Virus record (IMG/VR): IMGVR_UViG_3300036856_000037
Source: a virus
Taxonomy: Duplodnaviria > Heunggongvirae > Uroviricota > Caudoviricetes
Direction: 5' to 3' (one strand)
Length of the DNA: 64,000 nucleotides
The notes below the pieces were generated by a model. That model made no database searches, was not told where the DNA came from, and was given only the letters and a program-made list of their open reading frames with translations. The position numbers were made by a program, and so were the translations under genes. Of the stretch, positions 7,023-62,000 are shown in pieces; position 1 is the stretch's first letter, and the number at the start of each line of letters is the position of its first letter.

Positions 7023-7808
7023 CTAGGGCCTGCATGGCAATGGTCGGACATGGCCATTCCAGGCGTCCAACATATCCACGCAGAACTGTACTGAGCGGTG
7101 CGCCGGCCGCTTCGGGGTGATCTCGTCGATGTAATGCCGTATGGCTTCTCTGCCATCAAAACCGACGTCAATCCCCCAGACGGTGAATGCCGCCCACTTT
7201 CGTCCACACGGCGGACACTTTCCGCACGGACGGTCTCCGACAGGCTCATAGCAGGAGAAGGTCCGCTCTGCCATCTCCTGACCGTCTACTCCTCTGCGCA
7301 GACATTCCCCCACCAGGCTCGCCTTGGTCATGTGGTAGATGGGGAGCGTCAGGCGCACATGGCGACCCTCGGGCAACCACCGCTGGGGCGCGAACATGTA
7401 GTCGCAGAGAAGGTTGAAGCGCATGGTGAAGCGCCGGTCTTTGTCGTTGCCGGTGGAGCTGTCGACCGATCCCATCTGGATCACGTCGCCGTAGTTGGCC
7501 GCAACGAGAGCCAGGATGGCGTTGCGCCCGGGAATGACTTTGCTGTCGGGGAGCTCATACGCGCCTAGCTGGCGTAAGTCGGCCACCTGTAGCCGATTTT
7601 CCCAGCCTGGTGGCGTCTGTAAGCGACGAAACTCCGCGTCCCCGTACCGACCCGCAATTTTGCAGTACAACAGCACGTCAGAGCCACACAGGACGGCCAT
7701 GCCGTAGCTGTCGACACCGCCGCTGTAGAGCGCAACGGAAGTCATGAGGCCCCCGACGACGAGACACCATATGCCCTCAGCCGTAGTTTTGTCGCCGGGG
7801 TACCGCAC
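7023..7808 (-). CDS. queC: 7-cyano-7-deazaguanine (preQ0) synthase QueC
   Basis: PP-loop SGGVDS, VIPGRNAILALVAANYG block, C-terminal CGKCPPCGRK zinc motif. Confidence 0.8.
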   Translation of the reverse strand: MRYPGDKTTAEGIWCLVVGGLMTSVALYSGGVDSYGMAVLCGSDVLLYCKIAGRYGDAEFRRLQTPPGWENRLQVADLRQLGAYELPDSKVIPGRNAILALVAANYGDVIQMGSVDSSTGNDKDRRFTMRFNLLCDYMFAPQRWLPEGRHVRLTLPIYHMTKASLVGECLRRGVDGQEMAERTFSCYEPVGDRPCGKCPPCGRKWAAFTVWGIDVGFDGREAIRHYIDEITPKRPAHRSVQFCVDMLDAWNGHVRPLPCRP

Positions 7809-18635: not shown

Positions 18636-20384
18636 TCAGATACGCCCTGCGGCGAAATCTGACATCAGTTGCGGGACATTGCTGTCGAAGCCACTGATGT
18701 CCAAACTCGACGGGTCCTTGGGGTCGGCAATGCTGAAGTTGGTCGCCGTCATCGCGATGACACCGTACTTGACGTCATGGCCCACGAACTGCCGGTACTG
18801 CTCAAGGGCCTGCCACGGGTGAATCTGTCCGAACCAGGTCTCGTTGTCCGTGAGAGTCCAGATGGCGTCGAAGTCCAGCTTGTTGTGCATCGCCCACAGC
18901 ATGGGAAGCGCACAGTCGGTAGCGCCGAACGACAACTGCGCCATGTACTGGCACACGTCGTCCAGCCGACGCCGGGGGTCGATGTCCAGGCGTGTCGCCA
19001 CACCCGGGCGACCCCAGCCGCCGAAGCTACCCTGCCGTCCGTCCGAGAAGCCGATGATGTCGGCGTCCTGCTCAACGTTCAGCGTGACCAGCGACAGGGC
19101 TCCGACTGCCTCACGGCAGGTGATCGGCAGGCCGCTGGCCGGGCTCCCCATCGAACCCGACACGTCGCAGGCCAGCAGGATGCGCTTACGCGCCGCCTCC
19201 ACCGCGCCGTACGCGGCGTAGAACGCCTGGTCCAGCGCGTTGCTGACCTTGCGATCCGGCGTCCAGGTGCTATCACCGCGCGCACTGCGCCCACTCGCGT
19301 AGGTCCGCTGTGCCACCAACACGTTGATCGGGTGCACACGGCCACGCTTGAGCACCGCTGGGTCGGTGAGCTGCTTGACGATGGCCTTGCTGTAGCTGCT
19401 GTCCTGCGTCAGGCCCAGGTTGGTCAACCGGGGGAGCTGACGCAGGAGAGCAGTGATCGGGATGCCCTGGTCGAACAACGCCTCCCACACCGCTGGGATG
19501 CCCAGCGCCTTGTCCGGAAGCATCTCCCACGACATGCCGTTACCGTGCTGGATGATCTCCGTCCAGCGCCGTGCCGCCGACTTCTCACTGGCCGTGGTGC
19601 TCTGCGCCTCCAGGAAGTCGTTGACCAACGCGGGCAAGACCGTCTCATCGTGGTCCAACCACGTGCGGTAGTGCTCACGGTGTGTCCGGTTCAGGTGCTC
19701 AACCTGGGCCTCCTCGCGCTTGCCACCGGTGTCGACGGCGTAGCGGTAGAGGTGGTCACGCACCGAGTCGTCTGGCTGACCAATGTCGGGGTTGGCGTGG
19801 CTCAGCGCCAGCAGGTCACGGTGCATCCACCCTTCTCGCTGGCGGTACTTGAGGATCTGGTAGGCCAGCTTGTCGACGGGCTTCTGGTTGTACCAGTTGG
19901 CGACGGCGCGCTTGAACGCTCGGCCCCAGCCACGAAACTTGCGGATGTCGTTCTCCGCGCCGGGGTCGATGTAGCCGACGAACTGGTACAGGTGCGTGGC
20001 CGTACGGCACACCTGGTTCACCTTGGTCAGCGCGTAGGCGCGACCCTCATCGCCACCGAGGCTGACGGCCACGGCGAGCGCGAAGATGCACGGATTCTGT
20101 CGCGGCGCGCGGCCGGCGAGGGAGATTTCCACGACGGTGTCGACCAGCGTGATCGGGTCCTTCATCGCCATGTCCATCACGATCTGCGCGTTCTCCAGCG
20201 TGATGTCCTTGGACGACGTGTAATACGTGCCGCCCTCTGACCCCAATGTCAGCCAGCGACGAAGCCGCGCAAGTGGGTCGATCTCGAACACGAAGCCACC
20301 GGCGTTGTTCTTCGCCGTCGCAGCACCCGCGGGGCGGGACTGTGGCGTGGTGCGGATCGAAATACCCCTGAGCGTGTCAACCAT
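18636..20384 (-). CDS. rsr: Ro60/Rsr orthologue (TROVE domain + C-terminal vWA/MIDAS)
   Basis: ~580 aa; N-terminal TROVE-like region (GGFVFEIDPLARLRRWLTLGSEGGTYY); C-terminal vWA with LLACDVSGSMGSP MIDAS motif; start taken at second ATG with GGGAG spacing 6. Confidence 0.7.
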   Translation of the reverse strand: MVDTLRGISIRTTPQSRPAGAATAKNNAGGFVFEIDPLARLRRWLTLGSEGGTYYTSSKDITLENAQIVMDMAMKDPITLVDTVVEISLAGRAPRQNPCIFALAVAVSLGGDEGRAYALTKVNQVCRTATHLYQFVGYIDPGAENDIRKFRGWGRAFKRAVANWYNQKPVDKLAYQILKYRQREGWMHRDLLALSHANPDIGQPDDSVRDHLYRYAVDTGGKREEAQVEHLNRTHREHYRTWLDHDETVLPALVNDFLEAQSTTASEKSAARRWTEIIQHGNGMSWEMLPDKALGIPAVWEALFDQGIPITALLRQLPRLTNLGLTQDSSYSKAIVKQLTDPAVLKRGRVHPINVLVAQRTYASGRSARGDSTWTPDRKVSNALDQAFYAAYGAVEAARKRILLACDVSGSMGSPASGLPITCREAVGALSLVTLNVEQDADIIGFSDGRQGSFGGWGRPGVATRLDIDPRRRLDDVCQYMAQLSFGATDCALPMLWAMHNKLDFDAIWTLTDNETWFGQIHPWQALEQYRQFVGHDVKYGVIAMTATNFSIADPKDPSSLDISGFDSNVPQLMSDFAAGRI

Positions 20385-20491
20385 TTCCATCTCCCTTCTT
20401 CTCTTCAAAGCACACGCAGCACCGACGCCGATTCGTTAATTGGGGTGCTTAACACCCCGTCGACTTCCTTGGCGTCTATGCTGCGTGTGAA

Positions 20492-20564
20492 GGCGCGAAC
20501 GAAACAAGTGAGCACCGAACTAATTTCGGCAAATGAGATAATCGATGCTCATCCGGCTCGCGCC
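20492..20564 (-). ncRNA. Y-RNA-like module 6 (short; terminal stem GGCGCGA/TCGCGCC, lacks tRNA-like core)
   Basis: conserved GAGCCGGA-N5-AUCGAUUAUC hairpin and UUCGUUCG 3' motif; unit-specific complementary ends. Confidence 0.35.
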
Positions 20565-20575
20565 AAAAATCTTGT

Positions 20576-20722
20576 GAGAGTGGCGAACGAAAAAGTGTAG
20601 ACCCGTGTTTTAGTGCTCTGCCAGGCTGAGCTACACCCCACCATTGGTGGGGTGACGGGATTCGAACCCGCGACCACTCGATCCCAATTCGATAACGAAT
20701 CCGCATCCGGCTCGCCACTCTC
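20576..20722 (-). ncRNA. Y-RNA-like module 5 with permuted tRNA-like core (T-arm, acceptor-like hairpin, D-arm)
   Basis: 11-bp terminal stem GAGAGUGGCGA/UCGCCACUCUC; GGUCGCGGGUUCGAAUCCCGU-CACCCCA-ccaaugg-UGGGGUG-UA-GCUCAGCCUGGCAGAGC. Confidence 0.5.
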
Positions 20723-20742
20723 AAAAGTTAGTGACCTGAACG

Positions 20743-20854
20743 AAATTCGGCATCCAGCTGAACTGGATTTCTCCAGCCGCAGGGACTTCTACCTCCCCGC
20801 TTAGCGTTTAGGGCTCGCCAGCCGCAGATAACTGAATACACTCCGGCTCAGGTC
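20743..20854 (-). ncRNA. Y-RNA-like module 4 (terminal stem UGACCUGA/UCAGGUCA; no T-loop)
   Basis: conserved GAGCCGGA...UUCAGUUAUC hairpin; internal hairpins. Confidence 0.35.
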
Positions 20855-20863
20855 AACGTACAA

Positions 20864-21002
20864 GGTCCGAACGAAAATGTGACGACCGGCGTTTTTAGGG
20901 TGGGATTTGAACCCACGACCTTCACCCGCGAGGGCGATGCTCTACCAACCTGAGCTACCCCGCTAATTTGTGCGGATAACCGAACGTGCTCCGGCTCGGA
21001 CC
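20864..21002 (-). ncRNA. Y-RNA-like module 3 with near-complete tRNA-like core
   Basis: terminal stem GGUCCGA/UCGGACC; GGGGUAGCUCAGGUUGGUAGAGC ... GGUCGUGGGUUCAAAUCCCAC, but no canonical acceptor pairing and a 6-nt anticodon-like loop. Confidence 0.5.
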
Positions 21003-21010
21003 GAAGTTGT

Positions 21011-21145
21011 GGTGGCGAACGAAGTAGTTGTCGACTCGCGTTTAGCGACTTAGGCCTCTCGTCCACACCCCGAAGGGTGACGGGATTTGAACCCGCGTCT
21101 CTCTTTTTGACAGAAAGGTAACGAATAGACTTCCGGCTCGCCACC
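21011..21145 (-). ncRNA. Y-RNA-like module 2 (T-arm + acceptor-like hairpin closed by UUCG)
   Basis: terminal stem GGUGGCGA/UCGCCACC; GCGGGUUCAAAUCCCGUCACCCuucgGGGUG. Confidence 0.45.
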
Positions 21146-21158
21146 GAAGTTTGTAGGA

Positions 21159-21257
21159 GACGCGAACGAAGCAGTTGCCGCCGGATTCACACCCCTACGC
21201 GGGGTGAGAAGGATTCGAACCTTTTAGCCGATAACCGAACAGCTTCCGGCTCGCGTC
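21159..21257 (-). ncRNA. Y-RNA-like module 1 (T-arm + acceptor-like hairpin)
   Basis: 10-bp terminal stem GGAGACGCGA/UCGCGUCUCC; AAGGUUCGAAUCCUUCUCACCCCgcguaGGGGUG. Confidence 0.45.
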
Positions 21258-21274
21258 TCCCTATGAAATTTTCT

Positions 21275-21302
21275 AAGAGCGGTTGCGCCTGAACGCAATG
21301 CT
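21275..21302. promoter_or_regulatory. palindromic element TTGCGCCTGAACGCAATGC (second copy at 47545)
   Basis: TTGCG-N6-CGCAA inverted repeat in divergent intergenic region. Confidence 0.35.
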
Positions 21303-21371
21303 GATGACCTTAACAGGATGTGTGGACGCTTGTCCACCCCTTTTCCCCGGCGCGTCATATATGCTAGTCAC

Positions 21372-22046
21372 ATGGCCTATAACACCGAGGACTTCCCTAG
21401 TCAGCAGGCTGATGCGTGGTCGAAGGTCGTCGGACGCATGGTGGACAGGCCCACTGAGGCGGCATTGAACGGCAGTGTCAACGGGCCGGGTTCGAGCCTG
21501 GAGTACACCCGCTACATGCGCAAGGCGCTCCCCGACCTGCTGCGCAAGTACGGCATCACCACGATGCTTGATGCACCCTGCGGGGACTGGACGTGGATGC
21601 GGACGCTGGACCTGACCTTCCTGTACAGCTACATCGGCATGGACGTGGAGCGCCGGCTGATTGAGGCCAACCGGCTGAGCACGCTGAGCTTGAAGAACGT
21701 CACCTTCGTGTGCGCCAACCTGCTGACCCGCAAGACGTTCCCCCGGGTGGACCTCATCCTGTGCCGGGACTTTCTCGCTCACCTGCCCAATGAGTACATC
21801 AGCCAGATGCTCGAGCGGTTCAAAGCAAGCAAGAGCACCTACTTGCTTGCTTCTAACTACCCCGGCGCCTCCAACGTGTTCCACTACAAGCCCGAGGAAT
21901 ACCCCTGGCTGGGGTACCTGGAGCGGCCACATGACCTGCGGCTCAACCCCTTTGACTTAAAACAGCTCGACGCCATATCCGAACAATCACCCCCAGGGGG
22001 AGTCATCGCCAAGAAGCACGAACTTGCTTTGTTCTACCTGCAATGA
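21372..22046 (+). CDS. class I SAM-methyltransferase-like protein (paralogue of 40991..41650)
   Basis: LDAPCGDWTWM motif-I-like, RVDLILCRDFLAHLPNEY, KSTYLLASNYP. Confidence 0.5.
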   Translation: MAYNTEDFPSQQADAWSKVVGRMVDRPTEAALNGSVNGPGSSLEYTRYMRKALPDLLRKYGITTMLDAPCGDWTWMRTLDLTFLYSYIGMDVERRLIEANRLSTLSLKNVTFVCANLLTRKTFPRVDLILCRDFLAHLPNEYISQMLERFKASKSTYLLASNYPGASNVFHYKPEEYPWLGYLERPHDLRLNPFDLKQLDAISEQSPPGGVIAKKHELALFYLQ

Positions 22047-22723
22047 ACCTCTCCGTGCGCGCCACGTCCGAGGAGGAACTGGACCATCCAAGTACCAAGT
22101 TCCTCGACTACCGCAAGGTAATGGAGGAGCTGGCGGTGATCAATCGCGTCACGCTGACCCACCGCGCGGTGCTGGCGTGGCTGGCCAGTCAGGGACGGGA
22201 GAAGTTCTCCCTCATCGACGTCGGGTGTGGGGGCGGTGACCTCTTGCGCGCGATCCAGCGCCGCTACCCCCAGGCGCGCCTGGTCGGCATCGACAGCAAC
22301 CCGCGCGCCGCCACGGTGGCGCGGGAGCAACAGCTCATGCAGGAAACCGACACCCCCATCCACTACCGGACGGGGAACGTCTTCCACACCCCGCGGTCCA
22401 TCAAGGCGGACTACATCGTCAGCTCTCAGGTGGCCCACCACTTGGACGATGATGAGGTGGTCAAGCTCCTGCAGTGGATGGACGACCGGTCGTATATCGG
22501 CTGGCACCTGACTGACCTGCACCGGAATGCTTTCGCGCTCTATGCCTTTCAATTCATCGGCGGCGCTATTGGCCTGCATCACATCACCGTTGATGACGGC
22601 GTTATTTCCATCTCTCGCGGTTTCCGGCGTAGGGAATGGAAAGAATTCATCGAGCGCGCCCAGGTGGACGCGAACATTGTGTGGCATCCGTTATTCCGGT
22701 ACAGCATCAGCCGAATTAAGTAG
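22043..22723 (+). CDS. SAM-dependent methyltransferase
   Basis: motif I LIDVGCGGGDLL; ATGA-coupled to upstream gene. Confidence 0.65.
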   Translation: MNLSVRATSEEELDHPSTKFLDYRKVMEELAVINRVTLTHRAVLAWLASQGREKFSLIDVGCGGGDLLRAIQRRYPQARLVGIDSNPRAATVAREQQLMQETDTPIHYRTGNVFHTPRSIKADYIVSSQVAHHLDDDEVVKLLQWMDDRSYIGWHLTDLHRNAFALYAFQFIGGAIGLHHITVDDGVISISRGFRRREWKEFIERAQVDANIVWHPLFRYSISRIK

Positions 22724-22732
22724 CGACACACC

Positions 22733-22800
22733 GGGGTTAATACTGAAGTGCCAGGTAGCTGGCATATAATATAGCCACGCTGGCAACCGGCCAGCTACCT
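22733..22800 (+). promoter_or_regulatory. promoter/operator/leader element copy 4 (GTGCCAGGTAGCTGGCATATAAT + GCTGGCAACCGGCCAGC)
   Basis: -10 TATAAT 22765-22770; perfect downstream palindrome; RBS AAGGAAAGGAAAG. Confidence 0.5.
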
Positions 22801-22816
22801 GAAGGAAAGGAAAGTT

Positions 22817-23821
22817 ATGCCCGGTACGTTTGGCTTTGCGATATTTATTTTCATCGTCGCGGCCATCATCGTTCTCGTGGGAGTCGGAGGGATATTCGCC
22901 GGCAGTAAAGAGACGACCATCGGCGGCATCGGCATCGGTGTGGCGGTGGCATTACTCATCGGCCTGCCGCTGACACTGGTCGCCTCCTATGACCGCGTCG
23001 ACACGCGCAACGTCGGCATCCTGACAGACTTCGGCAGGCCGGATGGGGTCCAGGGCGCTGGGGTGTGGTGGCACGCGCCGTGGAAGCAGGTGCACGAACT
23101 GCCGGAGTCCATCCAGTTGCAGGCGTTCGAGTCCAACAGCTTCGACGACGCAAGCAAGGGTCAGGGTTCCAACAACAACCCGGCGGCCATCGGCGTTCGG
23201 CTGGCGAACAATTCGATGGCGTATGTCAACGCCAACCTGAACTGGCGCATCAAGGAGGGCGCGGCGCAGAAGCTATTCCAGGACTACGGCGGCGGCAACG
23301 TCTTCGGGACCATCAAGGAGCAGTTGGTCGACCGTCAGGAGCAGGTGGCGCTGTCCAAGGTGTTCGCCAAGTTCAACCCGCAGATTGTGGCGACGGCGAA
23401 TGCACCGGCGCCGGGTCAACCGGCACCACCGCCGCCTGGGCCTATCACGGCACCCGCGCAGGGCGCTAGCCTGCCCGACCTGGCCAGGGAAGTGAAGCAG
23501 GACCTGCAGGGTGCGGTGGGCGCGGAGATCGAAATCCTGGATGTCCGTATCCAGGGGATCTTCTACGACCAGCAGACCCAACAACGCATCGACATGTTCA
23601 ATCAGAAGGTGCAAGAAACCATGAATGCGGCGCAGGACGTCAAGACGGCTGAGCAACAGCGGGACGCGGCTATCCAGCGTGCCCAGCAGCCCAAGCCAGA
23701 CCTGACCATCGCGGTGTTCAACTGCATCCAGGAGGCGGTGGCGCAACACCAGCCGCAGAACGCCGCCGGGTGCTGGGGTCAGATTGGCGGGCAGCCGCTC
23801 ATCCAACTGCCCAAACCGTAG
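22817..23821 (+). CDS. SPFH/band-7 (HflK/C- or stomatin-like) membrane protein
   Basis: N-terminal TM helix, RVDTRNVGILTDFGRP band-7 start, long coiled-coil and Pro-rich C-terminus. Confidence 0.6.
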   Translation: MPGTFGFAIFIFIVAAIIVLVGVGGIFAGSKETTIGGIGIGVAVALLIGLPLTLVASYDRVDTRNVGILTDFGRPDGVQGAGVWWHAPWKQVHELPESIQLQAFESNSFDDASKGQGSNNNPAAIGVRLANNSMAYVNANLNWRIKEGAAQKLFQDYGGGNVFGTIKEQLVDRQEQVALSKVFAKFNPQIVATANAPAPGQPAPPPPGPITAPAQGASLPDLAREVKQDLQGAVGAEIEILDVRIQGIFYDQQTQQRIDMFNQKVQETMNAAQDVKTAEQQRDAAIQRAQQPKPDLTIAVFNCIQEAVAQHQPQNAAGCWGQIGGQPLIQLPKP

Positions 23822-42482: not shown

Positions 42483-42657
42483 TTCCGTTTCCGTGTGGAC
42501 GCCAGCGCGCGGCGTAGGCCGCCGCTTCACCAGGCTCGATCATCCACACACGACCGAATTTTGTCGCCGTTATAGCACCGCTGCTGCACGCCGCCTGGAC
42601 GGTGCGCAAGGGGATGCCGTATCGCTGTGCCACGTCGGGAGAGGAGAGGAAATTCAT
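42457..42657 (-). CDS. small HTH (MerR/excisionase-like) DNA-binding protein
   Basis: VAQRYGIPLRTVQAACSSGAI. Confidence 0.4.
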   Translation of the reverse strand: MNFLSSPDVAQRYGIPLRTVQAACSSGAITATKFGRVWMIEPGEAAAYAARWRPHGNGNGDEKIHA

Positions 42658-43298
42658 GGCGACCGCATGGTGTGCAGGTGATGGATGAGGGATACATCCT
42701 GCTCGCTCAGAATGCCCCGCACCGCCGTGGTGGTGGTGAGGCTGGCGGGACTGCGACAGCCTCGTAAGCGCATACAATCATGCGTCGCGGTAATGATGGC
42801 GATACACCCCAGCGGGTTGAGGACATTGACGATGCCGTCAACGACCTGCTGACCTATCCTCTCCTGGACCTGCAGCCGCGCGCTGTACCCGTACACCAGC
42901 CGGGTCAGTTTACTTAGCCCTACAATGCGCTGGGCTGGCGCAGGACGGTACGCAACGGTGGCGTGGCCACCAAACGGCAGCAGGTGGTGAGCGCAGATGC
43001 TTTGGACGTCGATGCCGCCTTGGATAATCAAGCCGGGGTCAGGCGGCGCGGGGAACGTCGTCAGCAGGTGGTCCTCAGGTATCTCCCGGTACCCCCACAG
43101 CATGTCCTCATACGCGCGCGCCACCCGCTCAGGCGTGGCCGCCGTGTGCTCACCCTCATCAATGTTCAGCGCATTGAGGAGCGCCTTGATGGCGCGGGTT
43201 GCGCCCTCTCTGTCCACCCCCAGCATTTCGCGCTCCGGGATGACGGAGTATGTCGGGTGCTCCACCCGAACTAGTGGTACGTGTTCGTCGTCTGTCAC
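42654..43298 (-). CDS. folE: GTP cyclohydrolase I
   Basis: ERVARAYEDMLWGY, QSICAHHLLPFGG, RIVGLSKLTRLV, ITATHDCMRLRG. Confidence 0.8.
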   Translation of the reverse strand: MTDDEHVPLVRVEHPTYSVIPEREMLGVDREGATRAIKALLNALNIDEGEHTAATPERVARAYEDMLWGYREIPEDHLLTTFPAPPDPGLIIQGGIDVQSICAHHLLPFGGHATVAYRPAPAQRIVGLSKLTRLVYGYSARLQVQERIGQQVVDGIVNVLNPLGCIAIITATHDCMRLRGCRSPASLTTTTAVRGILSEQDVSLIHHLHTMRSP

Positions 43299-43996
43299 TA
43301 CGTCCCTCGCTTGTCTCCGAACGCCAGGATTTGAAGCCTCTGCGTGATGTTGACCCGCTGGGCGATGGCCTCCTCAGCAATCTTGGGGAAGCGCGCCAGC
43401 AGTACCGCCGCGTCCGTCCCCTCCGGCATCACCCAGACGTGGTCCCGGGGCCACCCAGCCTTGTCCGCGTACTCCACCGCGCGCGCGACATCCTTGGCGT
43501 CCTCCACGACGAATTTGAGGATGGCGCGCTTGCCATACCCCACCCTGACGGGCCATGCGGCCATCGCGGGGTTTTGACCCTTCTTGTGTTCGCCGGCATT
43601 GTCCAGCTTCGGCGACACCGAGTAGTGCCCGACGTAGAACTGGGTCGCATTGTTCGGCAGGATCGTCCCGTTGGTCTCCACCGCCAGGTGGATGCGGCGA
43701 CGGTAGAGCATTTCCAGCAACTCAGCCCAGACGCGGTTGCCTTGGTGCATCAACGGCTCACCGCCGGTGATGACGACATCCTGGGTGTCCTTGGGGATCA
43801 GCGCCGCGACCTCCTTGGCCGTCATCGGCGTGAATTCCTTCTTCAGGTCATACCGGTTGGCGTCCCAGGTGTAGGGCGTGTCGCACCAGCTACAGGCGAG
43901 GTTGCAGCCACCGGTACGAATGAAGGTGCACAGCCGACCGGCGCGCGGACCCTCACCTTGAAAGGAGTGGAAAACCTCTGAGATAGGAATAGTCAT
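43298..43996 (-). CDS. queE: 7-carboxy-7-deazaguanine synthase QueE (radical SAM)
   Basis: GCNLACSWCDT cluster motif, ITGGEPL. Confidence 0.75.
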   Translation of the reverse strand: MTIPISEVFHSFQGEGPRAGRLCTFIRTGGCNLACSWCDTPYTWDANRYDLKKEFTPMTAKEVAALIPKDTQDVVITGGEPLMHQGNRVWAELLEMLYRRRIHLAVETNGTILPNNATQFYVGHYSVSPKLDNAGEHKKGQNPAMAAWPVRVGYGKRAILKFVVEDAKDVARAVEYADKAGWPRDHVWVMPEGTDAAVLLARFPKIAEEAIAQRVNITQRLQILAFGDKRGT

Positions 43997-44523
43997 GTCG
44001 TTATGCCGCTTCCGATGGGATGGATGAAGGGGATGGTGGAGATGTTGACCGGCTCAGGCTCCCACGTCGCGCTGTTCTCCGGCCCCTCATCGAGGATGAG
44101 TTTAAGGAGCCGCGCGTGGGGATACAGCGGCTCCTGGGCACCGACGCTGGTCCCCCACTCGCTGTAGGGCTTGTGTAGGCGCTCGATGGACCGCGCGGCA
44201 AGCTCTGCCGCAATGGCCTCCGTGGTCGGCGGACCATCCAGCGGGTAGTGCTTAAGCATGTTGGCCGCCAGGTAGACGCAGAAGTCGTCGGCCTTGTCGT
44301 GAATGAAGCCGTGGTCGAAGTCGCGCTTGATCAGCTCCCGTAGCGCCGCCTTGAGTGTCCCAAACTCCAAATCGCTGTCTTGGGCAAAGACCCAGGTGAC
44401 ATGGAAGGTATGGCCGTGGATATTCCTACACTTCTCCCCTGGCCCTGATAGGCCGAGAATCCGGTGGCCTGCGGCGAAGTGTGCCTTGACGCTGATGGTG
44501 CTCACCGCTTCACCTCTGCCCAC
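43993..44523 (-). CDS. queD: 6-carboxy-5,6,7,8-tetrahydropterin synthase QueD
   Basis: FAAGHRI ... CRNIHGHTFHV. Confidence 0.75.
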   Translation of the reverse strand: MGRGEAVSTISVKAHFAAGHRILGLSGPGEKCRNIHGHTFHVTWVFAQDSDLEFGTLKAALRELIKRDFDHGFIHDKADDFCVYLAANMLKHYPLDGPPTTEAIAAELAARSIERLHKPYSEWGTSVGAQEPLYPHARLLKLILDEGPENSATWEPEPVNISTIPFIHPIGSGITT

Positions 44524-44843
44524 TGCCGGTCAAACTCGTCGGCGTCGGCCAGGCGGGGCGGGCGGTCGTAGATGAGCACCTGGCGCGATGCCTCGCAGCC
44601 CGTTTCCTTGTCAATATTGGGGACTTCCATCGTCAGCTCAAAGCCTTGGGGCATCTTGGTGGTGCCCTCATGTGAGATGGTCAACTTAGTCACTCGAAAA
44701 CCGTTTTCATGCGACCGGGTGAGCACCGACTGATAGCCGTATTCACCGAAGTAGCGGGCTATCTCTTCGATACTGTCGTAGCCCACCAGGACAGCTGCGC
44801 ATCGCGCGGGACGCTCGTCGTATTCCGTGAAGAGGTCGCTCAT
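44502..44843 (-). CDS. hypothetical protein
   Basis: 113-aa ORF. Confidence 0.4.
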   Translation of the reverse strand: MSDLFTEYDERPARCAAVLVGYDSIEEIARYFGEYGYQSVLTRSHENGFRVTKLTISHEGTTKMPQGFELTMEVPNIDKETGCEASRQVLIYDRPPRLADADEFDRQWAEVKR

Positions 44844-45895
44844 ACTTTTCCTTCCGTCGACGGGTCGCCGTAGTCGCCCGCTTTCAATTCCTTCCCTGCC
44901 GCCAGGTCGGCGACCAGCTTCATATGCGGAGAGAAGCCGTCCACCAGGTGCAGGTGTGGGCCGTAGAATTCCTCAAACACCTTGCGCTCCCGGATGCCGG
45001 CGCCACACCCACTCATCGCCAGGTGCTGGACCGGCCCGTCCCCCAGGCTCCAGCCCTTGAGGCGGCCCCACTGCGGTGGTGTCACCGGCTTGTTGCGGAA
45101 GGTCTTGCGCCACTGCTCCTCCTGCACGGAGGCGGACAGCGCGGACAGGCGGACCAGCAGCACGCGGTTCTTAGGTCCCGACTTGGCGATTTCACTAGGC
45201 AGGACGCCGTAGTAGTCCTTGAGTAGTTGCGCCACCCGGGGCTTGTAGACGCCCTTGCCACCGTCCAGGTCGACGCCGATGCTTTCCCCCGTGACGGGGT
45301 CACGCAGCATGATGCGCCCATAGCGGTATGCCTGGCCCCAGCCCGAGGAGTCGACGGAGAAGAACGGCAACCGCATCCAATCCCGGTGCGTCATCCCCCA
45401 GCCGTGGAAGCGCATCTGCGGGTGGTTGTCCCGGGCGTATTTGAAGACACTGACCAGCCAGCGGAACGTCGCACTGGGCGGCCACGGTTGTCCCGCGACA
45501 CCGCCCAGCCCGAGAAAGTCCACGCCTTGCTCGGCATACCAGTCCATCGTCTCTGGCGGGTCACCCGCGTGGATGGTGGAGACGCCCGGGATGCCCAGGT
45601 CGCACATCCGTTGCCAGTTGCGCTTGGTCTGCTCAATAGACGGCACATCGAGTGCCGCGACCCAGGACAGCAGGTGTTCCCACTTATTCACCCAGGCGAC
45701 CAACTGCGTGGTGCTGATCGTCTTACCCAGCGTCCTGGCCGAGAAGGCGCCACTATCCGCGACGATGTTGCATGACGAGAACTTCTCGATGTCGATCCGC
45801 TTGTAATACCAGTACGACAGCAGGATGTTGCGCGGCGGCGGGATTCGCCCAGCGCCCTGGAGACGCAACTCGCTCACACGTCCTCCACAATCCAC
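44840..45895 (-). CDS. dpdA: DpdA-like DNA-guanine transglycosylase (TGT superfamily)
   Basis: ILLSYWYY ... [11 protein letters not shown]-like substrate pocket motif; 351 aa. Confidence 0.6.
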
Positions 45896-56065: not shown

Positions 56066-59000
56066 CTACGACACCGGAATCAGGATGCCGCTGATGCCAC
56101 CCCAGTAGTCGGCAGCACCGGTGGAGGCAGTGAAACTGAGTCCGCTTGCCCCGCTAGCATCCCCGACGACCATCGGCATACTGCTCGTGACACTCTGATT
56201 CCACCGCTGCGTTTGGTTGAACGAGCTGAAAGCGTGGTTGGCGCCGCCGAATCCCGCCACCACCATCTGGCCGGTGGAGGCACTGATGCCCGACAGGGTC
56301 GGCGTCCCGGTGTCGCCGCTGTTGTACGTGCAGTTTCCGATGGACCCGACATTGAGGTAGCTGACGGTGTTGGCCGCGATGCAGTCGATGGTTCCGCCAC
56401 CACTGGGCGTGATGGTCAGTGACACGGTTTGGGAGCCGCTGGGGGCGCCGATCAGCGCCACCGCGAAGGTCCAGTAGACCGTGCCACTGTGGTTGTAATA
56501 CTCAACCTGGTCCAGCAGGAGGGGGAAGTTGTAGGTCCCGTAGCTGTACGTCGCGTCTGCGGAGCCTTCATAAAACTGGACGGTGGCCCACAGCACCACG
56601 CAGCACGCGGGGCCGCCATCAGAGCTGTGCGTCCATGACACGGTTTCGGTGCCCGCCGTCGCCTCCTCTATACCCGACCCGGTGGCCTCATACGTCACCG
56701 TCAGCTCACTGCCGCCACCGCCGCCCAGTCCGCCCAGCGCGGTGGTTGTTGAGGCGTTTTGCCGTGAGGTGATCCATGCACTCCCCTGCGCACCACCGGC
56801 CGAGTTGACTTTGGAGTCTCCACCCGAACTTCCGCCGCCCGGGGCATTACCCGGCAGGTGGGTGGCGGTGGTTGAGGCGCCCGCGACATACAGGTTGTTA
56901 TTGAACGTCGTGTTGGTCTGGCCCAATCCTTCCGCCGACGTGTTGGTGTTCGCCGGGTTGTAATAAGCACTCCCACCGGGTCCGCCACCCTGGCCGCCAG
57001 TGGTTTGGGCCAAGACGTTTTGAATTGACGGATTGAGGACGACGGAGATGCCGCCCCAGCTGTCCGACAGGTTGTTGGTCGCGCCAATGGTGGCGCTGGC
57101 GCTGGCGTCCGTGATGGACAGACCGGAGTAGTAGTTGGCACCCGAGAGGTAATAGCCGTACCAGCGGTTCGTGCCGCCACTGAAGGCGGCCTGCTGCGCC
57201 TTGACAGAGCCCAGGAACTGCACCATGTACTGGTTGGCAGCACACATGGTGGATTGCGACAGTGCTGTGCCCGTCCCGTAGGTGTTGGCCACCAGCGCCA
57301 CCGACGACACGTTGTTGTACGAAATGGAGTTGGCCGAGGCATACGCCTTGCTCGCGGTACCTATCCCGATGGCCTGGACGCCACCGGGTACATCAGCCAG
57401 TCCGAATACGATGGTCGCGCCGTTGGCCCCGGCGTTGCCGTTATACACCAGACCCAGCGGGATCATCGGCACGCCGCCGTAGGTGACGTTGTAGGTTCCG
57501 AAGCCGGTGTTGATGCCCACCAGGATGTAGGCGCCCGCGGTAGCCGTGTGGTTCCACGTCATCCCGGTGCCATACATGTTGGCGCCTGCGCCCAGCGCGT
57601 CAAAGCTCGGCTGGGTCACCGTCCCGTAGCCCACCAGGGTGTCGGTGCCCGACCCCGAGGGTGCACAGCCCCCGCTACCCACGATGACCGTCAGCTCCGT
57701 CACGCTGGTGGGGAAATCGGTGCCATAGGTATAGGTGTTCTTCTGCCACACGCCGCAGTTGCCGCCCTGGCCGTTGTTGAACGCCGAGGAGGTGCCATCT
57801 CCCCACCCACCCGCGCCGCCACCGGGGAGGAGCACGGAGTCGACGTAGTCACCGGACAACAGCCAGGTTGGCAGGGTCAGCGAGAAGATGCCCGCCGCGT
57901 TGAATACCGTCTGGCTCGGTGGCTGGTAGGCCGCGGGGAGCGCGGACACACTGACACACGCAAAGGGGCACGTGCCGCCATAGGAGAGCTGGGAAGCCGT
58001 CAGGGTCGTCGGCGACACCCCGCCGGTGCTCGACGTCGACCGGCTGGCCCCCACGTTGGGTGGGATGCTGTTGGGGTTGTTGGGGATGGCCAGGGTCTCG
58101 GCCACCACGCTGATCGTGCTGGACTGCGCCACGATTTCCACCGCGATGAGCGTGCCGACTACAAGAGTCGGCTGATCAGCCGTGGTGATGGTGACACCCA
58201 CCCAGCCCCAGGAACCGTTGGCGATAGAGCCGGAGATGTCGGTGGAGGCCCATAGGAGGGTCTGCGTCGCCGTGGTGGTGTCAATGGAGTAGAGGTTGAC
58301 ATAAACGCCGGAGCCCCCGGCGCCCTTGGCCATGAACTCAACAAAGCCCACGTCGGTGACTTGAGAACTGTTGATGAATCCCATCAACGTGGTGCCACTG
58401 GAGATGCTGATGCTGGGCAGTGTCGACCCGGTAAAAGCAGAGAGCGGGAAGGTGACCTGACCCGAAGGTTGCAGCCCACTCCACACCGGCTGATTGGACA
58501 CGTTGGTGATTACCTGGTTGTTTGCCACACCAATCTCCAATGCGGTGGCCGCGCTGGTGGCCGTGACGCCCACCGACTGCAGCATCTGCGCCAACTGGAC
58601 GCCGGTGACGTTCGTCTGGCTGGACGCTGAGGCTAGTTGGTCGATGAGGTTCTGCCAGGCCGTCGCCAGGTCGGCTTCACCCTGTGGTCCCGCGACCGCC
58701 ACCGAAGACAACTGCGGAATGTTGGTCACGTCCAGCAGGGCGGCGTCAATCAATGTGGTGGGCGCGAACAGCGCACTGGTGAACCACACGTCGCCGGTGG
58801 CCGCCGCCGCCGGTTCCACGGTGAAGACCAGGCACGCGGTGGCCGCACTAACCGGCATGACAAAGGAGGCGGATACCGGATACCAGCCCCAGTTGCTCGT
58901 CGGCTCAGGGTCCGTGATGGTCGTCTGGGTGGCCGTCACGGTGGCAATCAAATTCCCGCTGGAGTCGTAGGCATTGACCCCTACGGAGATGAGCTCACCT

Positions 59001-62000
59001 TCAGCAAAGATGTTGTTCCACATGATGCTGGCGCCCGCCTGGACCACCTGGCCCGGCTGGACGGCAGTGCGCTGACCTGCTTCAAACTGCAGAAGCTGGC
59101 CGTCCAGCGGCGGACCCTGGATCGGTGTTCCGTCAGGGTGCACGCCGCCGGCGAAGCTGTTGATGTAGTCCAGGCCGATCTGGACATACGACCGGGCATC
59201 CCCATCATCAATGTTGGGCTGGCCGTAGAAGTAGGCGTACTGCGAGCTTGCGCTCTCAAAGTTCTCCGCATAGTAGTTTTCCAGCGCCAGCGCCGTCTTG
59301 ATCTGTGTCGCGCCAGCGGTGTTCGCCTTCTCTGCCGCCGTCGCCACCGTGCCCAGGTTCCCCAGGTACGTCTTGTACACCGCGTCGTAGAGGACGCGGA
59401 ACCACTGGCCTTGCACGCCGCCACCCAACGAGATGTCAGCGGCATTGCCCGAGGACCCGGGGGAGTAGGACGCATTGGTCGGGCCGACTGAGCCGGGGAG
59501 GAGATAGTTGGCCAGGTTGTACCAGTGCAGGCTCAGCGCGTTGAGGATATAGGGCGCGCCGGTGGTCTGGAAGTTCTCTGCCACCGCGATGGTCGTCTGG
59601 GTGACCGGCTCATACATCACACAGCAGTCGTTGCCGGGTTCAGACCCATCATTGCCGAACCAGGCCGAGTCATTGAACCAGCCCAAGCCCCATTGCTGGT
59701 AGACCGAGCCTGCCCCACCCGGCCCGGACCACTGGGTGGCCATGTTGGTCGGCGTACCGGGCTCAGTAAAGACCGTCATACGCTCCTGCTGGACGTCAGC
59801 ACTGAACAGCGCGCCTTGTCCCGACTGCGTCCCGAAGCTGACCAGGTCACCGATGGTGCCCTGCATGTTGCCCGCGGTGAAGAAGTAGTCGACATTGATC
59901 TTGGTAAACGTCTGGGTGCCGCTGGTGATACCGAGGTAGTCCAGGATCATCAGCTCATACGTCGTACACGCGGGAGACGGGAGTGCCGACACGCCGCTGA
60001 GCATCGACGTGTTGGTCAGCCCCATCGGCGTGCAGACGTTGTCGGCCATCAGCACGGCAGCCGTCTTGCTGTAGAGGGTTTGCAGGATGAATCCCAGCAG
60101 GATGAAGTTGGACTCCGTGTAGTACCACACGGTGCCAGGTGGCGCATTCGCCGTACCGGCCTCAATCACCGACAGCTGGCTCGCGGGCGTGATGGCCGTG
60201 ATGGTGGGGTCGATGAGGAACTGCAGCGCGACAAGCTCATCCTGCTCAGTGTCATAGACACCGGAGGTTTGCATCAGCATCTCGCGGATGGTGATGGTTG
60301 AGGCGTTGGCCACGCTCGGGTACCAGGTGTCCAAGGTGTCATCAAGTGTCAGCAGGCCATCACTGACGGCCTTGAGGATGGCGTTGGCGACAAACCCCTT
60401 GGAGACCGAGCCGAATCGGAAGTGGTCGTTGACCGCGAACCCGGTGCCATAGGACTGGTAGTAATAGCCCATCGGACCAGAGATTCCGATGACGGTGCCG
60501 GTAACGTTGGCTACCTGCGCGGCGTTCGACACCATGATCTCGTCGATGATCGCGGTGTACTCCTCAGCCATCGGCTGGCCGTACTGCGGGTTCAGCATCC
60601 AATTCGTCTGCTGGCTGGGAACGAATGTCCCGCTCACCGGGCACGACGTCAGGTAGTCGCCGGGAGCGCAGAAGTCCCACCACTTGGACTCGGTGTCAAT
60701 GAGGTTGCCGGTGGCCGGGGTGGTGGTGTTGCCCGCGCTGGTGTACGGCCCGATGGCCGCCGGGACCTCCACCACACAGCCTGAGGTGTTGGCCGGGGGA
60801 TTAAAGCCGGGCCACGCATGACCCTCCTCGCGGCGCATGTTGCCGAACATGACACCGGCCAGCAGGTCGTTGGCCCTGCCGGTCAACGTGCCATAGCGAA
60901 TCAGGTCGTACACGCCGTCACAGATGAGCGACCCCTGGCCGGCGCCCACCAGGATGAACGGACCCGGGATGGTGTTGATGGCGTTGGTCAGCCACGTAAT
61001 GCCCTGCGCGACACTTTGGGAGGGCACCACGTTGGAGGGATAGGGGACAAAGATCGTCTCGAAGTAGCTCTCGTCCAGCCCGCTGTACATGTAGCCCATG
61101 CCCAGGTAGGACTGCGCGGAGTTGCTGAGGTACTGCAGCAGGCCGGATTCGAACGCCGGGGTGAAGACACCACCGGGTGTACCCGGCACCACGTAGACGG
61201 TGATGAGCCCGCGCCGCACCGTGCGGATCGACCCTCCGGTGCCGTTGTTGATCCACCCGTCCCACACCCAGAGCCCCTGGCCTTGGATGCCCGCGCCGGT
61301 GGCGAAGTTGGGGTCCTTGAGGATGTTGGTGACCGCGCCGGGCGCCAGCGACTTGAGCAGGTCGGCGCTGACCTGGGTGGTGTTGTTCAAGCTCCCCAGC
61401 AACGTCGCCAAGGTTTCCCCCGTGGTGGAGGTGCCACCACCCCCGTTGCCGGGCGTGGTGCCGGTCCCCAGTCCGCCGGGGTTACCCAGCAGATTGAGGA
61501 TGTCTTTGATCCACGTCTCAATCGTGCCCAGCGGGTTGGTGATCAGTCCCACGATGTCCGTCAGCGCGCCGGCGATGGCCTGCTCGATTTTGCCCGGCAG
61601 TCCCTCGATCAGGCTGAACAACTCTGACAACGGGTTGCCGGTCCCCGAGCCACCCAGCGCGTCAACGATGGTGTCGAGGATGTCCTGACCGAGTCCCAGC
61701 ACGCCCTCCAGGACGCTCTTGAGCACCGACAGGGTGTTGCCGATGATGTTGTTACCCGTCAGCGCATTGACGATGGTGTCGATGATGTTCTGAATGATGC
61801 CGAAGATGGCGCCACCCAGGCCACCGCCTGCTCCCGCGGAGTTGGTGCCGTTAAGCGGCTCTAACCCGAAGAACTCCAAGATGGCGTTGATGAAGTCCAG
61901 CGGCAACTCCATGATGTCGATGATCATCTGCGCCAGGTTGAGCGACTTCTGGCCGACGACGTCCTCAATGCCCTGGTCAAGCTCATTGAGCGGGTTCTTG

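What the first reader, a model, noticed from the sequence alone, without database searches (positions are those of the whole stretch)
18636..21300. Ro60/Rsr orthologue preceded by six tandem Y-RNA-like tRNA-mimic modules with compensatory covariation
The 590-aa minus-strand ORF has an N-terminal TROVE-like region and a C-terminal vWA domain with a DVSGSM MIDAS motif. That is the Ro60/Rsr architecture.

Directly upstream on the same strand lie six tandem units (20492-21257). Each has conserved borders: 5' GAGCCGGA-N5-6-UUCGGUUAUC, which folds as a CCGGA/UUCGG hairpin, and 3' UUCGUUCG.

Every unit is bounded by a 7-11-bp inverted repeat. The repeat sequence differs between units but is always self-complementary within a unit: GAGAGUGGCGA/UCGCCACUCUC, GGUCCGA/UCGGACC, GGUGGCGA/UCGCCACC, GGAGACGCGA/UCGCGUCUCC, UGACCUGA/UCAGGUCA, GGCGCGA/UCGCGCC. 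This compensatory change is the signature of a base-paired terminal stem in a structured RNA.

Four units carry canonical tRNA T-arm sequences (GGUUCGAAUCC or GGUUCAAAUCC), and two also carry a D-arm (GCUCAG..GAGC). Bacterial Rsr is known to bind Y RNAs (YrlA) whose distal domain mimics tRNA, and Y-RNA/rsr loci have been reported in some mycobacteriophages. A six-member array of divergent paralogues next to rsr would be an unusually elaborate version.
Basis: partly seen in the sequence, partly recalled or inferred. Interest (0 to 1): 0.9.

Follow-up and report, generated by a model that had tools for sequence, protein, structure and literature searches.

The report
Phage Ro60 gene with six Y RNAs
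A mycobacteriophage-like genome carries a Ro60/Rsr RNA-binding protein gene preceded by six small structured RNA genes of the known Y-RNA type; the partnership is already known, but arrays this large and varied, which turn out to be normal in this phage group, are not described in the papers I could read.

Summary

- **Protein.** The minus-strand ORF (18636-20384/20408) is a Ro60/Rsr orthologue: TROVE and vWA_Ro60 domains, a DVSGS MIDAS motif, and D. radiodurans Rsr as best solved relative.
- **RNA units.** Six abutting units lie upstream on the same strand (20492-21260). Each has a terminal stem ending GAGC/GUUC, an internal loop carrying GCCGGA, a second long-range helix, UUAYC, then a variable distal module.
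- **Covariation.** Both helices covary strongly, within the window and across 48 units from 13 loci.
- **Independent model.** A covariance model built without the window finds three window units and nothing else significant in 64 kb.
- **Corrections.**
  - The local CCGGA/UUCGG hairpin is not the conserved fold.
  - U2 also has a D-like arm.
  - U3 is a tRNA body in normal order.
  - U4 and U6 are not tRNA-like.
- **Not exceptional.** The closest relatives and an M. abscessus prophage carry 5-7 such units, with unit classes in a partly conserved order.

Verdict: a new member of the known Rsr/Y-RNA system, with an under-described multi-class array. No expression or binding data exist. Interest is moderate.

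The parts
18636..20384 (-). rsr: Ro60/Rsr orthologue, 582 aa from ATG 20384 (the mechanical ORF runs to TTG 20408, 590 aa). N-terminal TROVE ring domain and C-terminal vWA domain with a DVSGS MIDAS motif.
   Evidence: - Pfam TROVE 8.4e-47 and vWA_Ro60 9.4e-54.
- PDB 2NVO Rsr 2e-92 and 1YVP Ro60 2.8e-88.
- phrog_850 RNA-binding protein 2e-84.
- P0001 is 100% identical over 582 aa.
- Relatives start MVD.
20385..20491 (-). Leader between the last Y-RNA unit and the rsr start codon. It holds a GGGGUGU-UAA-GCACCCC hairpin (20459-20441) and a GGGAG ribosome-binding site 6 nt before the ATG.
   Evidence: Read directly from the sequence. A weak terminator-like site lies at 20430-20417. In relatives this leader is only 15-25 nt.
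20492..20564 (-). U6: short Y-RNA-like unit (73 nt). Basal module only, with an 18-nt interior and no tRNA features.
   Evidence: - Covariance model R1, built without window sequences: 48.4 bits, E 3.4e-10.
- H1 9 bp, H2 9 bp.
- Fold z-score -4.09.
- Short units occupy the rsr-proximal position in all relatives.
20576..20722 (-). U5: canonical YrlA-type Y RNA (147 nt). Order of elements: basal module, small hairpin, T arm, 9-bp closed acceptor-like stem, D arm (permuted tRNA order).
   Evidence: - Rfam YrlA RF02553: 44.7 bits, E 1.7e-8, model positions 1-114. This is below the gathering score of 69.
- H1 13-14 bp.
- Fold z-score -5.3.
20732..20855 (-). U4: Y-RNA-like unit (124 nt) whose distal module is two or three hairpins with no T or D motifs.
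   Evidence: - H1 10 bp, H2 8 bp.
- Fold z-score -3.93.
- The same class occurs in L005, L007, L009 and L010, with hairpins partly conserved.
20864..21002 (-). U3: Y-RNA scaffold carrying a tRNA-like core in ordinary order (D arm, anticodon-like arm with a 6-nt loop, T arm). It has no acceptor stem. A CCGC...GCGG hairpin replaces the 5' acceptor strand.
   Evidence: - Rfam tRNA: 36.9 bits, model positions 6-65 only.
- ARAGORN makes no call.
- The core is 80-83% identical to annotated phage tRNAs, mostly tRNA-Thr.
- It is the only unit with D-to-T order among about 70 units.
21011..21145 (-). U2: YrlA-variant unit (135 nt). Order of elements: hairpin in the variable-arm position, T arm, 5-bp acceptor-like hairpin, D-like arm with a 3-bp stem (GAC-GAGAGGCCUAA-GUC).
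   Evidence: - R1: 41.5 bits, E 2.2e-8.
- The class is conserved in 8 relatives. The acceptor-like stem and the D stem covary; the T arm is conserved in sequence.
21156..21260 (-). U1: Y-RNA-like unit (105 nt) with a T arm and an acceptor-like hairpin but no D arm. It is the first unit of the array.
   Evidence: - R1: 44.0 bits, E 4.8e-9.
- H1 12-13 bp.
- Fold z-score -4.08.
- The same class is the first unit in L005-L012.
21261..21298 (-). Candidate promoter TTGCGT (21298-21293), 17-nt spacer, TAGAAA (21275-21270). It is followed by the conserved box AAUUUCAUAG, which abuts U1. This part is inferred only.
   Evidence: - The consensus promoter scan found nothing here.
- The box (A)ACUUCAUAG / AAUUUCAUAG abuts the first unit in 9 loci.
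- L008 and L012 have clear TTGACA/TTGACG-N17-TANNNT promoters upstream of their first unit.

Best explanation
This is an rsr operon of a mycobacteriophage-like genome. It encodes six different Y-RNA-like noncoding RNAs followed by the Ro60/Rsr protein that they are expected to bind.

**Anatomy of each RNA (shown by sequence and covariation).**
- Its 5' and 3' ends pair into a terminal stem (H1, 9-14 bp) whose last four pairs are GAGC/GUUC.
- An asymmetric internal loop follows. It carries CGGA(N) on the 5' side and about 8-10 nt ending in UUC on the 3' side.
- A second long-range helix follows (H2, 7-9 bp), then UUAYC.
- A distal module comes last, and it differs in every unit.

**Rsr binding (inferred from published Y-RNA work).** Rsr recognises the conserved 5'-strand motif (GCCGGA here, GNCGAAN0-1G in published YrlA RNAs) in the H1/internal-loop region. 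All six RNAs would therefore share one protein-binding platform.

**Transcription and processing (inferred).**
- The spacers are only 8-11 nt. In relatives the last unit sits 15-25 nt from the rsr start codon.
- The array and rsr are therefore probably one transcript made from a promoter upstream of U1.
- That transcript would be cut in the short A/U-rich spacers and trimmed back to the protein-protected stems.

**Function of the distal modules (inferred).** By analogy with the D. radiodurans Rsr/Y RNA/PNPase machine and the Thermus phage phiLo Ro60/Yrl/PNPase complex, the distal modules act as effector-binding or gating domains.
- The six modules are: T arm plus acceptor hairpin (U1); YrlA variant with a 3-bp-stem D arm (U2); non-permuted tRNA body (U3); plain hairpins (U4); canonical YrlA tRNA mimic (U5); minimal unit (U6).
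- They would couple the single phage Rsr to different host partners during infection, such as PNPase or tRNA-recognising enzymes.
For: **Protein.**
- TROVE plus vWA_Ro60 domains.
- Best solved relatives are Rsr and Ro60.
- 355 phage records carry homologues annotated as Ro-like RNA-binding protein.

**RNA.**
- Motif enrichment: 6 copies here against 1 elsewhere in the window.
- All six units fold better than shuffles, z-scores -2.6 to -5.3.
- U5 matches Rfam YrlA, E 1.7e-8.
- H1 and H2 covary within the window: 95.1% paired against 72.7% in shuffles, 11 of 17 pairs compensatory.
- H1 and H2 covary over 48 units from 13 loci: 92.6% against 72.7%, 159 double-sided cells against 42, 15 of 17 pairs compensatory, slid controls 33-43%.
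- Invariant G-U pairs (GAGC/GUUC, and the U-G pair in H2) are only possible in RNA read from the rsr strand.

**Independent model.**
- R1 was built from 41 non-window units. In 64 kb on both strands it finds U6, U1 and U2 at 41-48 bits and nothing else above 13.5 bits.
- Across 12 related loci its 43 hits are all on the rsr strand and all upstream of rsr.

**Other.**
- No genes were called in the equivalent gaps of relatives.
- Published precedent: YrlA-type RNAs lie near rsr on the same strand in 254 bacteria and 22 phages, with the Rsr-binding motif in the 5' strand of the terminal stem (PMC4201824). A phage Ro60 binds two upstream Yrl RNAs and host PNPase (PMC12135203).
Against: - There are no expression, processing or binding data for this or any related array.
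- No unit reaches the Rfam YrlA gathering score (44.7 against 69).
- The presumed Rsr-binding motif differs from the published consensus at one position (GCCGGA, not GNCGAA).
- Only U5, and loosely U2, has the full permuted tRNA-like domain that defines YrlA. U4 and U6 have none.
- R1 did not recover U3-U5 as whole units, because their interiors exceed what the model tolerates.
- The 3' strands of H1 and H2 were located by best complementarity, which inflates the percentage paired to some degree. The shuffle and slide controls argue that this does not explain the result.
- No sigma-70-type promoter passed the consensus scan.
- No PNPase, RtcB or RNA ligase gene was found among about 40 window ORFs scanned. 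Any partner would therefore have to be a host protein.
Confidence: 0.85

Rival explanations
1. The six structured units are a cis-acting leader of the rsr mRNA rather than stable trans-acting RNAs. They could be an autoregulatory Rsr-binding 5' UTR or a set of RNA-stability elements.
For: - The units and rsr appear to be one transcription unit, with spacers of 8-11 nt and the last unit 15-25 nt from the ATG in relatives.
- All units share the putative Rsr-binding platform.
Against: - Characterised homologues (M. smegmatis YrlA/YrlB, Salmonella YrlA/YrlB) are stable RNAs bound by Rsr (PMC4201824).
- In Gordonia phage GMA2 the YrlA-like units lie downstream of rsr.
- Five or six distinct distal-module classes kept in partly conserved order across loci are hard to explain for a leader.
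Confidence: 0.07
2. The region is a decaying cluster of tRNA genes (pseudo-tRNAs) that lies next to rsr by chance. Many actinophages carry tRNA clusters.
For: - T-arm motifs are present in four units and D arms in two or three.
- The U3 core scores 36.9 bits against Rfam tRNA and is 80-83% identical to phage tRNAs.
- GenBank annotators called tRNAs on two homologous units.
Against: - ARAGORN finds no tRNA in the window.
- No unit has an acceptor stem.
- The T and D arms of U5 and U2 are in permuted order.
- U4 and U6 have no tRNA features.
- All units share a non-tRNA basal module with covarying helices, conserved across 13 loci.
Confidence: 0.02
3. The repeats act at the DNA level, as binding sites for a regulator, recombination repeats or a replication element.
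For: Conserved 8-nt boxes recur at roughly regular spacing of 85-155 bp.
Against: - The variable parts change in a compensatory way.
- The conserved G-U pairs would be A-C mismatches on the other strand.
- All 43 covariance-model hits in relatives are on the rsr strand.
Confidence: 0.02

Closest known systems
M. smegmatis Rsr with YrlA and YrlB (Chen et al. 2014, PMC4201824)
   Same: - An actinobacterial Rsr with Y RNAs encoded directly 5' of rsr on the same strand.
- The terminal stem carries the Rsr-binding motif in its 5' strand.
- YrlA has a T arm, a closed acceptor-like stem and a D arm.
- A second, smaller Y RNA has only a T arm.
   Different: - Two RNAs there, six here.
- Here the motif is GCCGGA rather than GNCGAA.
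- Extra module types are present here: a non-permuted tRNA core, plain hairpins and a minimal unit.
- The element here is a phage, not a chromosome.
YrlA-like RNAs of cluster C mycobacteriophages (ET08 in Chen et al. 2014; Dandelion examined here)
   Same: - A phage-encoded Ro-like protein (51% identical to this one).
- Same-strand upstream units of identical build, GGCCGA...UCGGUUAYC.
   Different: Dandelion has 3 units (short, YrlA, short). The window has 6, with additional module classes.
M. abscessus prophage prophiGD43A-5 (GenBank MW584167)
   Same: - The closest phage Rsr in GenBank (54% identical).
- It also has six upstream units of the same architecture.
   Different: - Its 5' box is GA[AG]CAGGA.
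- Its units are mostly YrlA-type.
- The units are unannotated apart from one call as 'tRNA-Thr'.
D. radiodurans Rsr with Yrn1/Yrn2 and the Rsr-Y RNA-PNPase (RYPER) machine
   Same: - Several small RNAs are encoded upstream of rsr.
- The Y RNA tethers Rsr to an exoribonuclease.
- Yrn1 has its T and D arms in the opposite orientation to YrlA (PMC4201824), as U3 does here.
   Different: The Ro-binding helix is metazoan-like, with both strands conserved. It is a separate lineage, and PNPase binding has not been tested here.
Thermus phage phiLo Ro60 with Yrl1 and Yrl2 (PMC12135203)
   Same: A phage Ro60 with Y-RNA-like genes upstream, a stem / CGAA-bulge / stem design, and ternary complexes formed with host PNPase.
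   Different: Two RNAs there. The protein is distant, and no tRNA-like modules were reported.

Membership tests
Ro60/Rsr protein family | N-terminal TROVE (HEAT-repeat ring) domain | tested here: met
   Pfam PF05731, 8.4e-47, residues 33-367.
Ro60/Rsr protein family | C-terminal von Willebrand A domain with a MIDAS motif (DxSxS) | tested here: met
   Pfam vWA_Ro60 PF25045, 9.4e-54, residues 409-586. DVSGS is present in the translation.
Ro60/Rsr protein family | Sequence similarity to structurally characterised Ro60/Rsr proteins | tested here: met
   2NVO Rsr 2e-92, 1YVP X. laevis Ro60 2.8e-88, 9NEN RO60 3.2e-86.
Ro60/Rsr protein family | Binds Y RNA on the outer ring surface | not testable with these tools
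   Needs EMSA, co-immunoprecipitation or a structure.
Bacterial Y RNA (YrlA/YrlB type) | Encoded within 4 kb of rsr on the same strand | tested here: met
   All six units lie 108-876 nt upstream of the rsr ATG on the minus strand.
Bacterial Y RNA (YrlA/YrlB type) | The 5' and 3' ends pair into a long stem interrupted by an internal loop | tested here: met
   H1 9-14 bp and H2 7-9 bp in all six units. Covariation is shown.
Bacterial Y RNA (YrlA/YrlB type) | Conserved Rsr-binding motif GNCGAAN0-1G in the 5' strand | tested here: inconclusive
   All six units have GCCGGA(N0-1)G at the expected place, which is one mismatch (G for A at position 5). Relatives show GCCGAA, GCCGAU, GCCGAC and GCAGGA. 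Only G-C-[C/A]-G is constant.
Bacterial Y RNA (YrlA/YrlB type) | Bound and stabilised by Rsr in vivo | not testable with these tools
   No expression or binding data.
YrlA subfamily (Rfam RF02553) | tRNA-like domain in permuted order: T arm, closed acceptor-like stem, D arm | tested here: met
   - Met for U5 (Rfam alignment).
- Met for U2 with a 3-bp-stem D arm.
- Not met for U1 (no D arm), U3 (D-to-T order), U4 or U6.
YrlA subfamily (Rfam RF02553) | Reaches the Rfam gathering score (69 bits) | tested here: not met
   U5 scores 44.7 bits and the other units have no hit. No unit in 12 related phage loci reaches the gathering score, including Dandelion, a cluster C phage like ET08, in which YrlA was published. 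The threshold looks too strict for actinophages.
tRNA | Cloverleaf with a 7-bp acceptor stem and a 7-nt anticodon loop | tested here: not met
   ARAGORN finds 0 genes in the window. Rfam tRNA matches only model positions 6-65 of the U3 core, whose anticodon-like loop is 6 nt.

The most novel reading that the evidence does not exclude
A clade of mycobacteriophage-like genomes keeps an ordered set of five to seven structurally distinct Y RNAs. The module types are a T arm plus acceptor hairpin, a long-arm-tRNA-like variant, hairpin-only modules, the canonical permuted tRNA mimic, minimal units and, in this phage, a non-permuted tRNA body.

Each would act as a different adaptor, so that one phage Rsr could be coupled to several host partners. 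Alternatively, some could act as decoys for host enzymes that recognise or cleave tRNAs during infection. On this reading the array is a programmable adaptor library, not a set of redundant paralogues.
Probability: 0.25. Interest if true: 0.7.

Novelty: new member of a known kind. Interest (0 to 1): 0.45.

Why it matters
**Function of bacterial Y RNAs.** What Y RNAs do in bacteria, and why they mimic tRNA, is still unsettled. A phage that carries six different distal modules on one shared Rsr-binding platform offers a natural panel for asking which module recruits which partner. So do its relatives, which keep the module classes in partly conserved order.

**Annotation.**
- The Rfam YrlA threshold misses all actinophage Y RNAs examined here.
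- tRNA finders have mis-called at least two such units as tRNA genes in GenBank phage records.

Tried and rejected
- **Nucleotide searches.** Megablast of the locus and of 24 kb of the window against phage records found no relative at nucleotide level.
- **Locus scans.** Single-protein scans of genome contigs and viral contigs returned nothing. Relatives came from the protein database and contig look-ups instead.
- **Covariance model with filters off.** R1 performed worse with filters off. R1 therefore cannot count long units, and unit boundaries for those come from a script.
- **U2 D arm.** Comparing the U2 D-like arm with annotated long-arm tRNAs of phages was uninformative, because those tRNAs are idiosyncratic. 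The resemblance to class II tRNA D arms rests on my own knowledge only.
- **Promoter scan.** It found nothing.
- **Partner genes.** About 40 window ORFs were scanned for RtcB, PNPase or RNA ligase. None was found.
- **Literature.** Three Y-RNA reviews (PMC10870794, PMC6047535, PMC6542706) are not held. I could not check whether larger arrays are mentioned there. The supplementary tables of Chen et al. 2014 are not held either.


Full report
**1. Observation**

The minus strand of 18400-21600 holds a 590-aa ORF (18636-20408, TTG start) preceded by six abutting units. The units are U1 21260-21156 (105 nt), U2 21145-21011 (135), U3 21002-20864 (139), U4 20855-20732 (124), U5 20722-20576 (147) and U6 20564-20492 (73).

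GAGCCGGA occurs six times here and once elsewhere on either strand of the window. TTCGTTCR occurs six times here and once elsewhere.

They continue for four more pairs through the conserved GAGC/GUUC.

T-arm motifs are in U1, U2, U3 and U5, and GCUCAG..GAGC D arms are in U3 and U5. Each unit folds more stably than its shuffles, with z-scores from -2.6 to -5.3.

**2. The protein**

- Pfam gives TROVE (8.4e-47) and vWA_Ro60 (9.4e-54).
- DVSGS fits the MIDAS pattern DxSxS.
- The best solved relatives are D. radiodurans Rsr 2NVO (2e-92) and X. laevis Ro60 1YVP.
- PHROGs gives phrog_850, RNA-binding protein.
- The likely start is ATG 20384 (582 aa). A 100% identical database protein has that length, and relatives begin MVD just after a ribosome-binding site.
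- 355 phage records encode a homologue, mostly annotated 'Ro-like RNA binding protein'. The best is 54% identical.

**3. Anatomy of a unit**

Comparison of the six units with units from 12 related loci gives one architecture:

- a terminal helix H1 (9-14 bp) ending in GAGC/GUUC (GCCC in some relatives);
- an internal loop with CGGA(N0-5) on the 5' side and 7-10 nt ending in CUUC, UUUC, CAC or CAU on the 3' side;
- a second long-range helix H2 (6-9 bp);
- the sequence UUAYC;
- a variable interior of 16-107 nt.

I cut fixed blocks from 48 units (alignment A1, no gaps). On these, H1 plus H2 are 92.6% paired against 72.7% in shuffles. There are 159 cells with changes on both sides against 42 expected, and 15 of 17 pairs show compensatory change. 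Sliding the partner by 1-3 columns drops pairing to 33-43%.

The six window units alone give 95.1% against 72.7%, with 11 of 17 pairs compensatory.

One caveat applies. The 3' strands were located by best complementarity, which favours pairing. The conserved anchors (GUUC, CUUC), the shuffles and the slid controls indicate that this is not the explanation.

The invariant G-U pair in GAGC/GUUC and the U-G pair in H2 exist only in RNA read from the rsr strand.

It shows no covariation (79.6% paired against 78.4% in shuffles), and substitutions are not compensated. The covarying partner of UUCGG is the CCGGU-like strand near the 3' end, as in the Rfam YrlA consensus.

GCCGGA(N0-1)G then lies where Chen et al. 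place the Rsr-binding motif GNCGAAN0-1G (PMC4201824). It differs from that motif at one position.

**4. The distal modules differ**

- **U5** is a canonical YrlA. Rfam RF02553 aligns end to end (44.7 bits, E 1.7e-8), with a T arm, a 9-bp closed acceptor-like stem and a D arm.
- **U2** has a hairpin in the variable-arm position, a T arm, a short acceptor-like hairpin and a D-like arm with a 3-bp stem (GAC-GAGAGGCCUAA-GUC). This class recurs in eight relatives. The acceptor-like stem and D stem covary, and the T arm is sequence-conserved. Its likeness to the D arms of long-arm tRNAs is my own reading; comparison with phage tRNAs was uninformative.
- **U1** has a T arm and an acceptor-like hairpin but no D arm.
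- **U3** is different in kind.
  - Its core is a tRNA body in ordinary order: D arm, anticodon-like arm with a 6-nt loop, T arm.
  - It matches Rfam tRNA positions 6-65 (36.9 bits).
  - It is 80-83% identical to annotated phage tRNAs.
  - It lacks an acceptor stem and sits inside the Y-RNA scaffold.
  - It is the only one of about 70 units with this order.
  - Chen et al. note the same reversed orientation for D. radiodurans Yrn1.
- **U4** has only hairpins, partly conserved in four relatives.
- **U6** is a minimal 73-nt unit.

ARAGORN calls no tRNA in the whole window.

**5. Relatives**

There is no nucleotide-level relative in GenBank phages. The closest Rsr proteins (60-63% identical) come from metagenomic or Logan contigs of 20-128 kb with phage-like genes. 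Each has a gene-free gap of 0.8-1.1 kb in front of rsr.

Covariance model R1 was built from 41 units that exclude the window. In the 64-kb window it finds U6 (48.4 bits), U1 (44.0) and U2 (41.5). The next-best hits are 13.5 bits (part of U5) and 12.4 bits. U3-U5 are too long for this model.

In the 12 loci, R1 gives 43 hits. All are on the rsr strand and all lie upstream of rsr.

Unit counts:

| Locus | Units |
|---|---|
| L005 | 7 |
| L001 (prophiGD43A-5), L006, L008, L012 | 6 each |
| L007, L009 | 5-6 each |
| L010 | 5 |
| L011 | 3-4 |
| L004 (Dandelion) | 3 |
| L002 (Farewell), L003 (Cashline) | 2 each |

Among more distant phages, GMA2 has about 3, Magritte has at least 1, and nothing was detected in two Streptomyces phages.

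Unit classes keep a partly conserved order: the T-plus-acceptor class first, the U2 class second, and short units next to rsr. Six units is therefore typical of this clade, not exceptional.

**6. Context and expression**

The window is phage-like and points to a Mycobacterium host.

- It encodes minor tail proteins, RecE/RecT and a replication initiator.
- It encodes two PPE-family proteins.
- Two SAM methyltransferases and a Band_7 protein lie divergently next to the array. Band_7 genes also neighbour rsr in relatives.
- No PNPase, RtcB or RNA ligase was found in about 40 ORFs.

Spacers between units are 8-11 nt, which is too short for promoters. In relatives the last unit ends 15-25 nt before the rsr start. 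A single transcript is therefore inferred.

The consensus scan finds no promoter. A weak candidate, TTGCGT-N17-TAGAAA, ends 9 nt before U1. A conserved box (A)ACUUCAUAG abuts the first unit in nine loci, and L008 and L012 have good promoters further upstream.

**7. Mechanism**

What is shown:

- a shared, covarying basal platform with a conserved 5'-strand motif;
- varied distal modules;
- linkage to rsr on the same strand.

What is inferred from published systems (PMC4201824, PMC12135203):

- Rsr binds the platform.
- The precursor is processed in the A/U-rich spacers and trimmed to the protected stems.
- The distal modules tether or gate Rsr with respect to host partners such as PNPase and tRNA-recognising enzymes.

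**8. Comparison, novelty and score**

This is the known Rsr/Y-RNA system. Phage examples have been published since 2014, and a phage Ro60 with two Yrl RNAs was characterised in 2025.

What I did not find in the literature I could search is a description of 5-7-member, multi-class arrays or of a non-permuted tRNA core on a Y scaffold. Three reviews and the key supplementary tables were not available.

I rate this a new member of a known kind, with moderate interest (0.45).

Noticed in passing
L001 2250-2328 (prophiGD43A-5) and L014 1464-1540 (Microbacterium phage Magritte): GenBank features 'tRNA-Thr(tgt)' and 'tRNA-Arg(tct)' overlap the 5' halves of Y-RNA-like units (L001 unit 2253-2390; Rfam YrlA 36.6 bits at L014 1472-1598). 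They look like tRNA-finder mis-calls.
   Followed up: partly
window 20576-20722; L001-L016: The Rfam YrlA gathering score (69 bits) misses every actinophage unit. The best scores are 44.7, 43.1 and 36.6 bits, and nothing reaches gathering in 12 loci. Standard annotation therefore leaves these arrays blank.
   Followed up: yes
window 21261-21270 and the equivalent position in L005-L012: A conserved box (A)ACUUCAUAG / AAUUUCAUAG directly abuts the first unit of the array in nine loci. Spacers between units often end in AACUUC-like sequence. It could be a processing signal or a promoter-proximal element.
   Followed up: partly
window 10232-11455 (+) and 50206-51270 (-): Two ORFs with strong PPE-family domains (2.5e-59 and 3.8e-53) lie in a phage-like genome. 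PPE proteins are a mycobacterial family, which points to a Mycobacterium host and is unusual phage cargo.
   Followed up: no
window 42654-45895 (-) and 7023-7808 (-): A 7-deazaguanine/preQ0 gene set is present: GTP cyclohydrolase I, a QueE-like radical SAM enzyme, QueD (PTPS), a queuine tRNA-ribosyltransferase-like protein and QueC. This suggests modification of the phage DNA.
   Followed up: no
window 21318-23821 (+): Two SAM-dependent methyltransferase genes and a Band_7/SPFH gene are transcribed divergently from the array. Band_7 genes also lie near rsr in L005, L006 and L008.
   Followed up: partly
window 18584-18627: A perfect 13-bp inverted repeat (CCATGATGGACCG ... CGGTCCATCATGG, 18-nt loop) lies immediately after the rsr stop codon. 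It overlaps the start of the next ORF and has no U tract.
   Followed up: no
window 20441-20459: A GGGGUGU-UAA-GCACCCC hairpin lies in the 107-nt leader between U6 and rsr. Relatives lack this long leader.
   Followed up: no
window 56066-62068 (-): A 2000-aa ORF with a beta-lactamase-fold domain lies next to a minor tail protein gene (62068-63525). It is probably a tail-associated cell-wall enzyme.
   Followed up: no
L013 3770-4181 and 4491-4547 (Gordonia phage GMA2): A tmRNA (94.6 bits) and a Pistol ribozyme (56.8 bits, above the gathering score) lie just downstream of rsr. They sit among YrlA-like units and a tRNA cluster.
   Followed up: no
L005 2778-2899, L006 2541-2662, L008 2562-2680, L001 2100-2226: A further conserved unit class is absent from the window. 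Its interior reads ...GUUCAAGGAAUAGGACGCC...GGAAAUGG..., with no tRNA motifs and no known counterpart.
   Followed up: no
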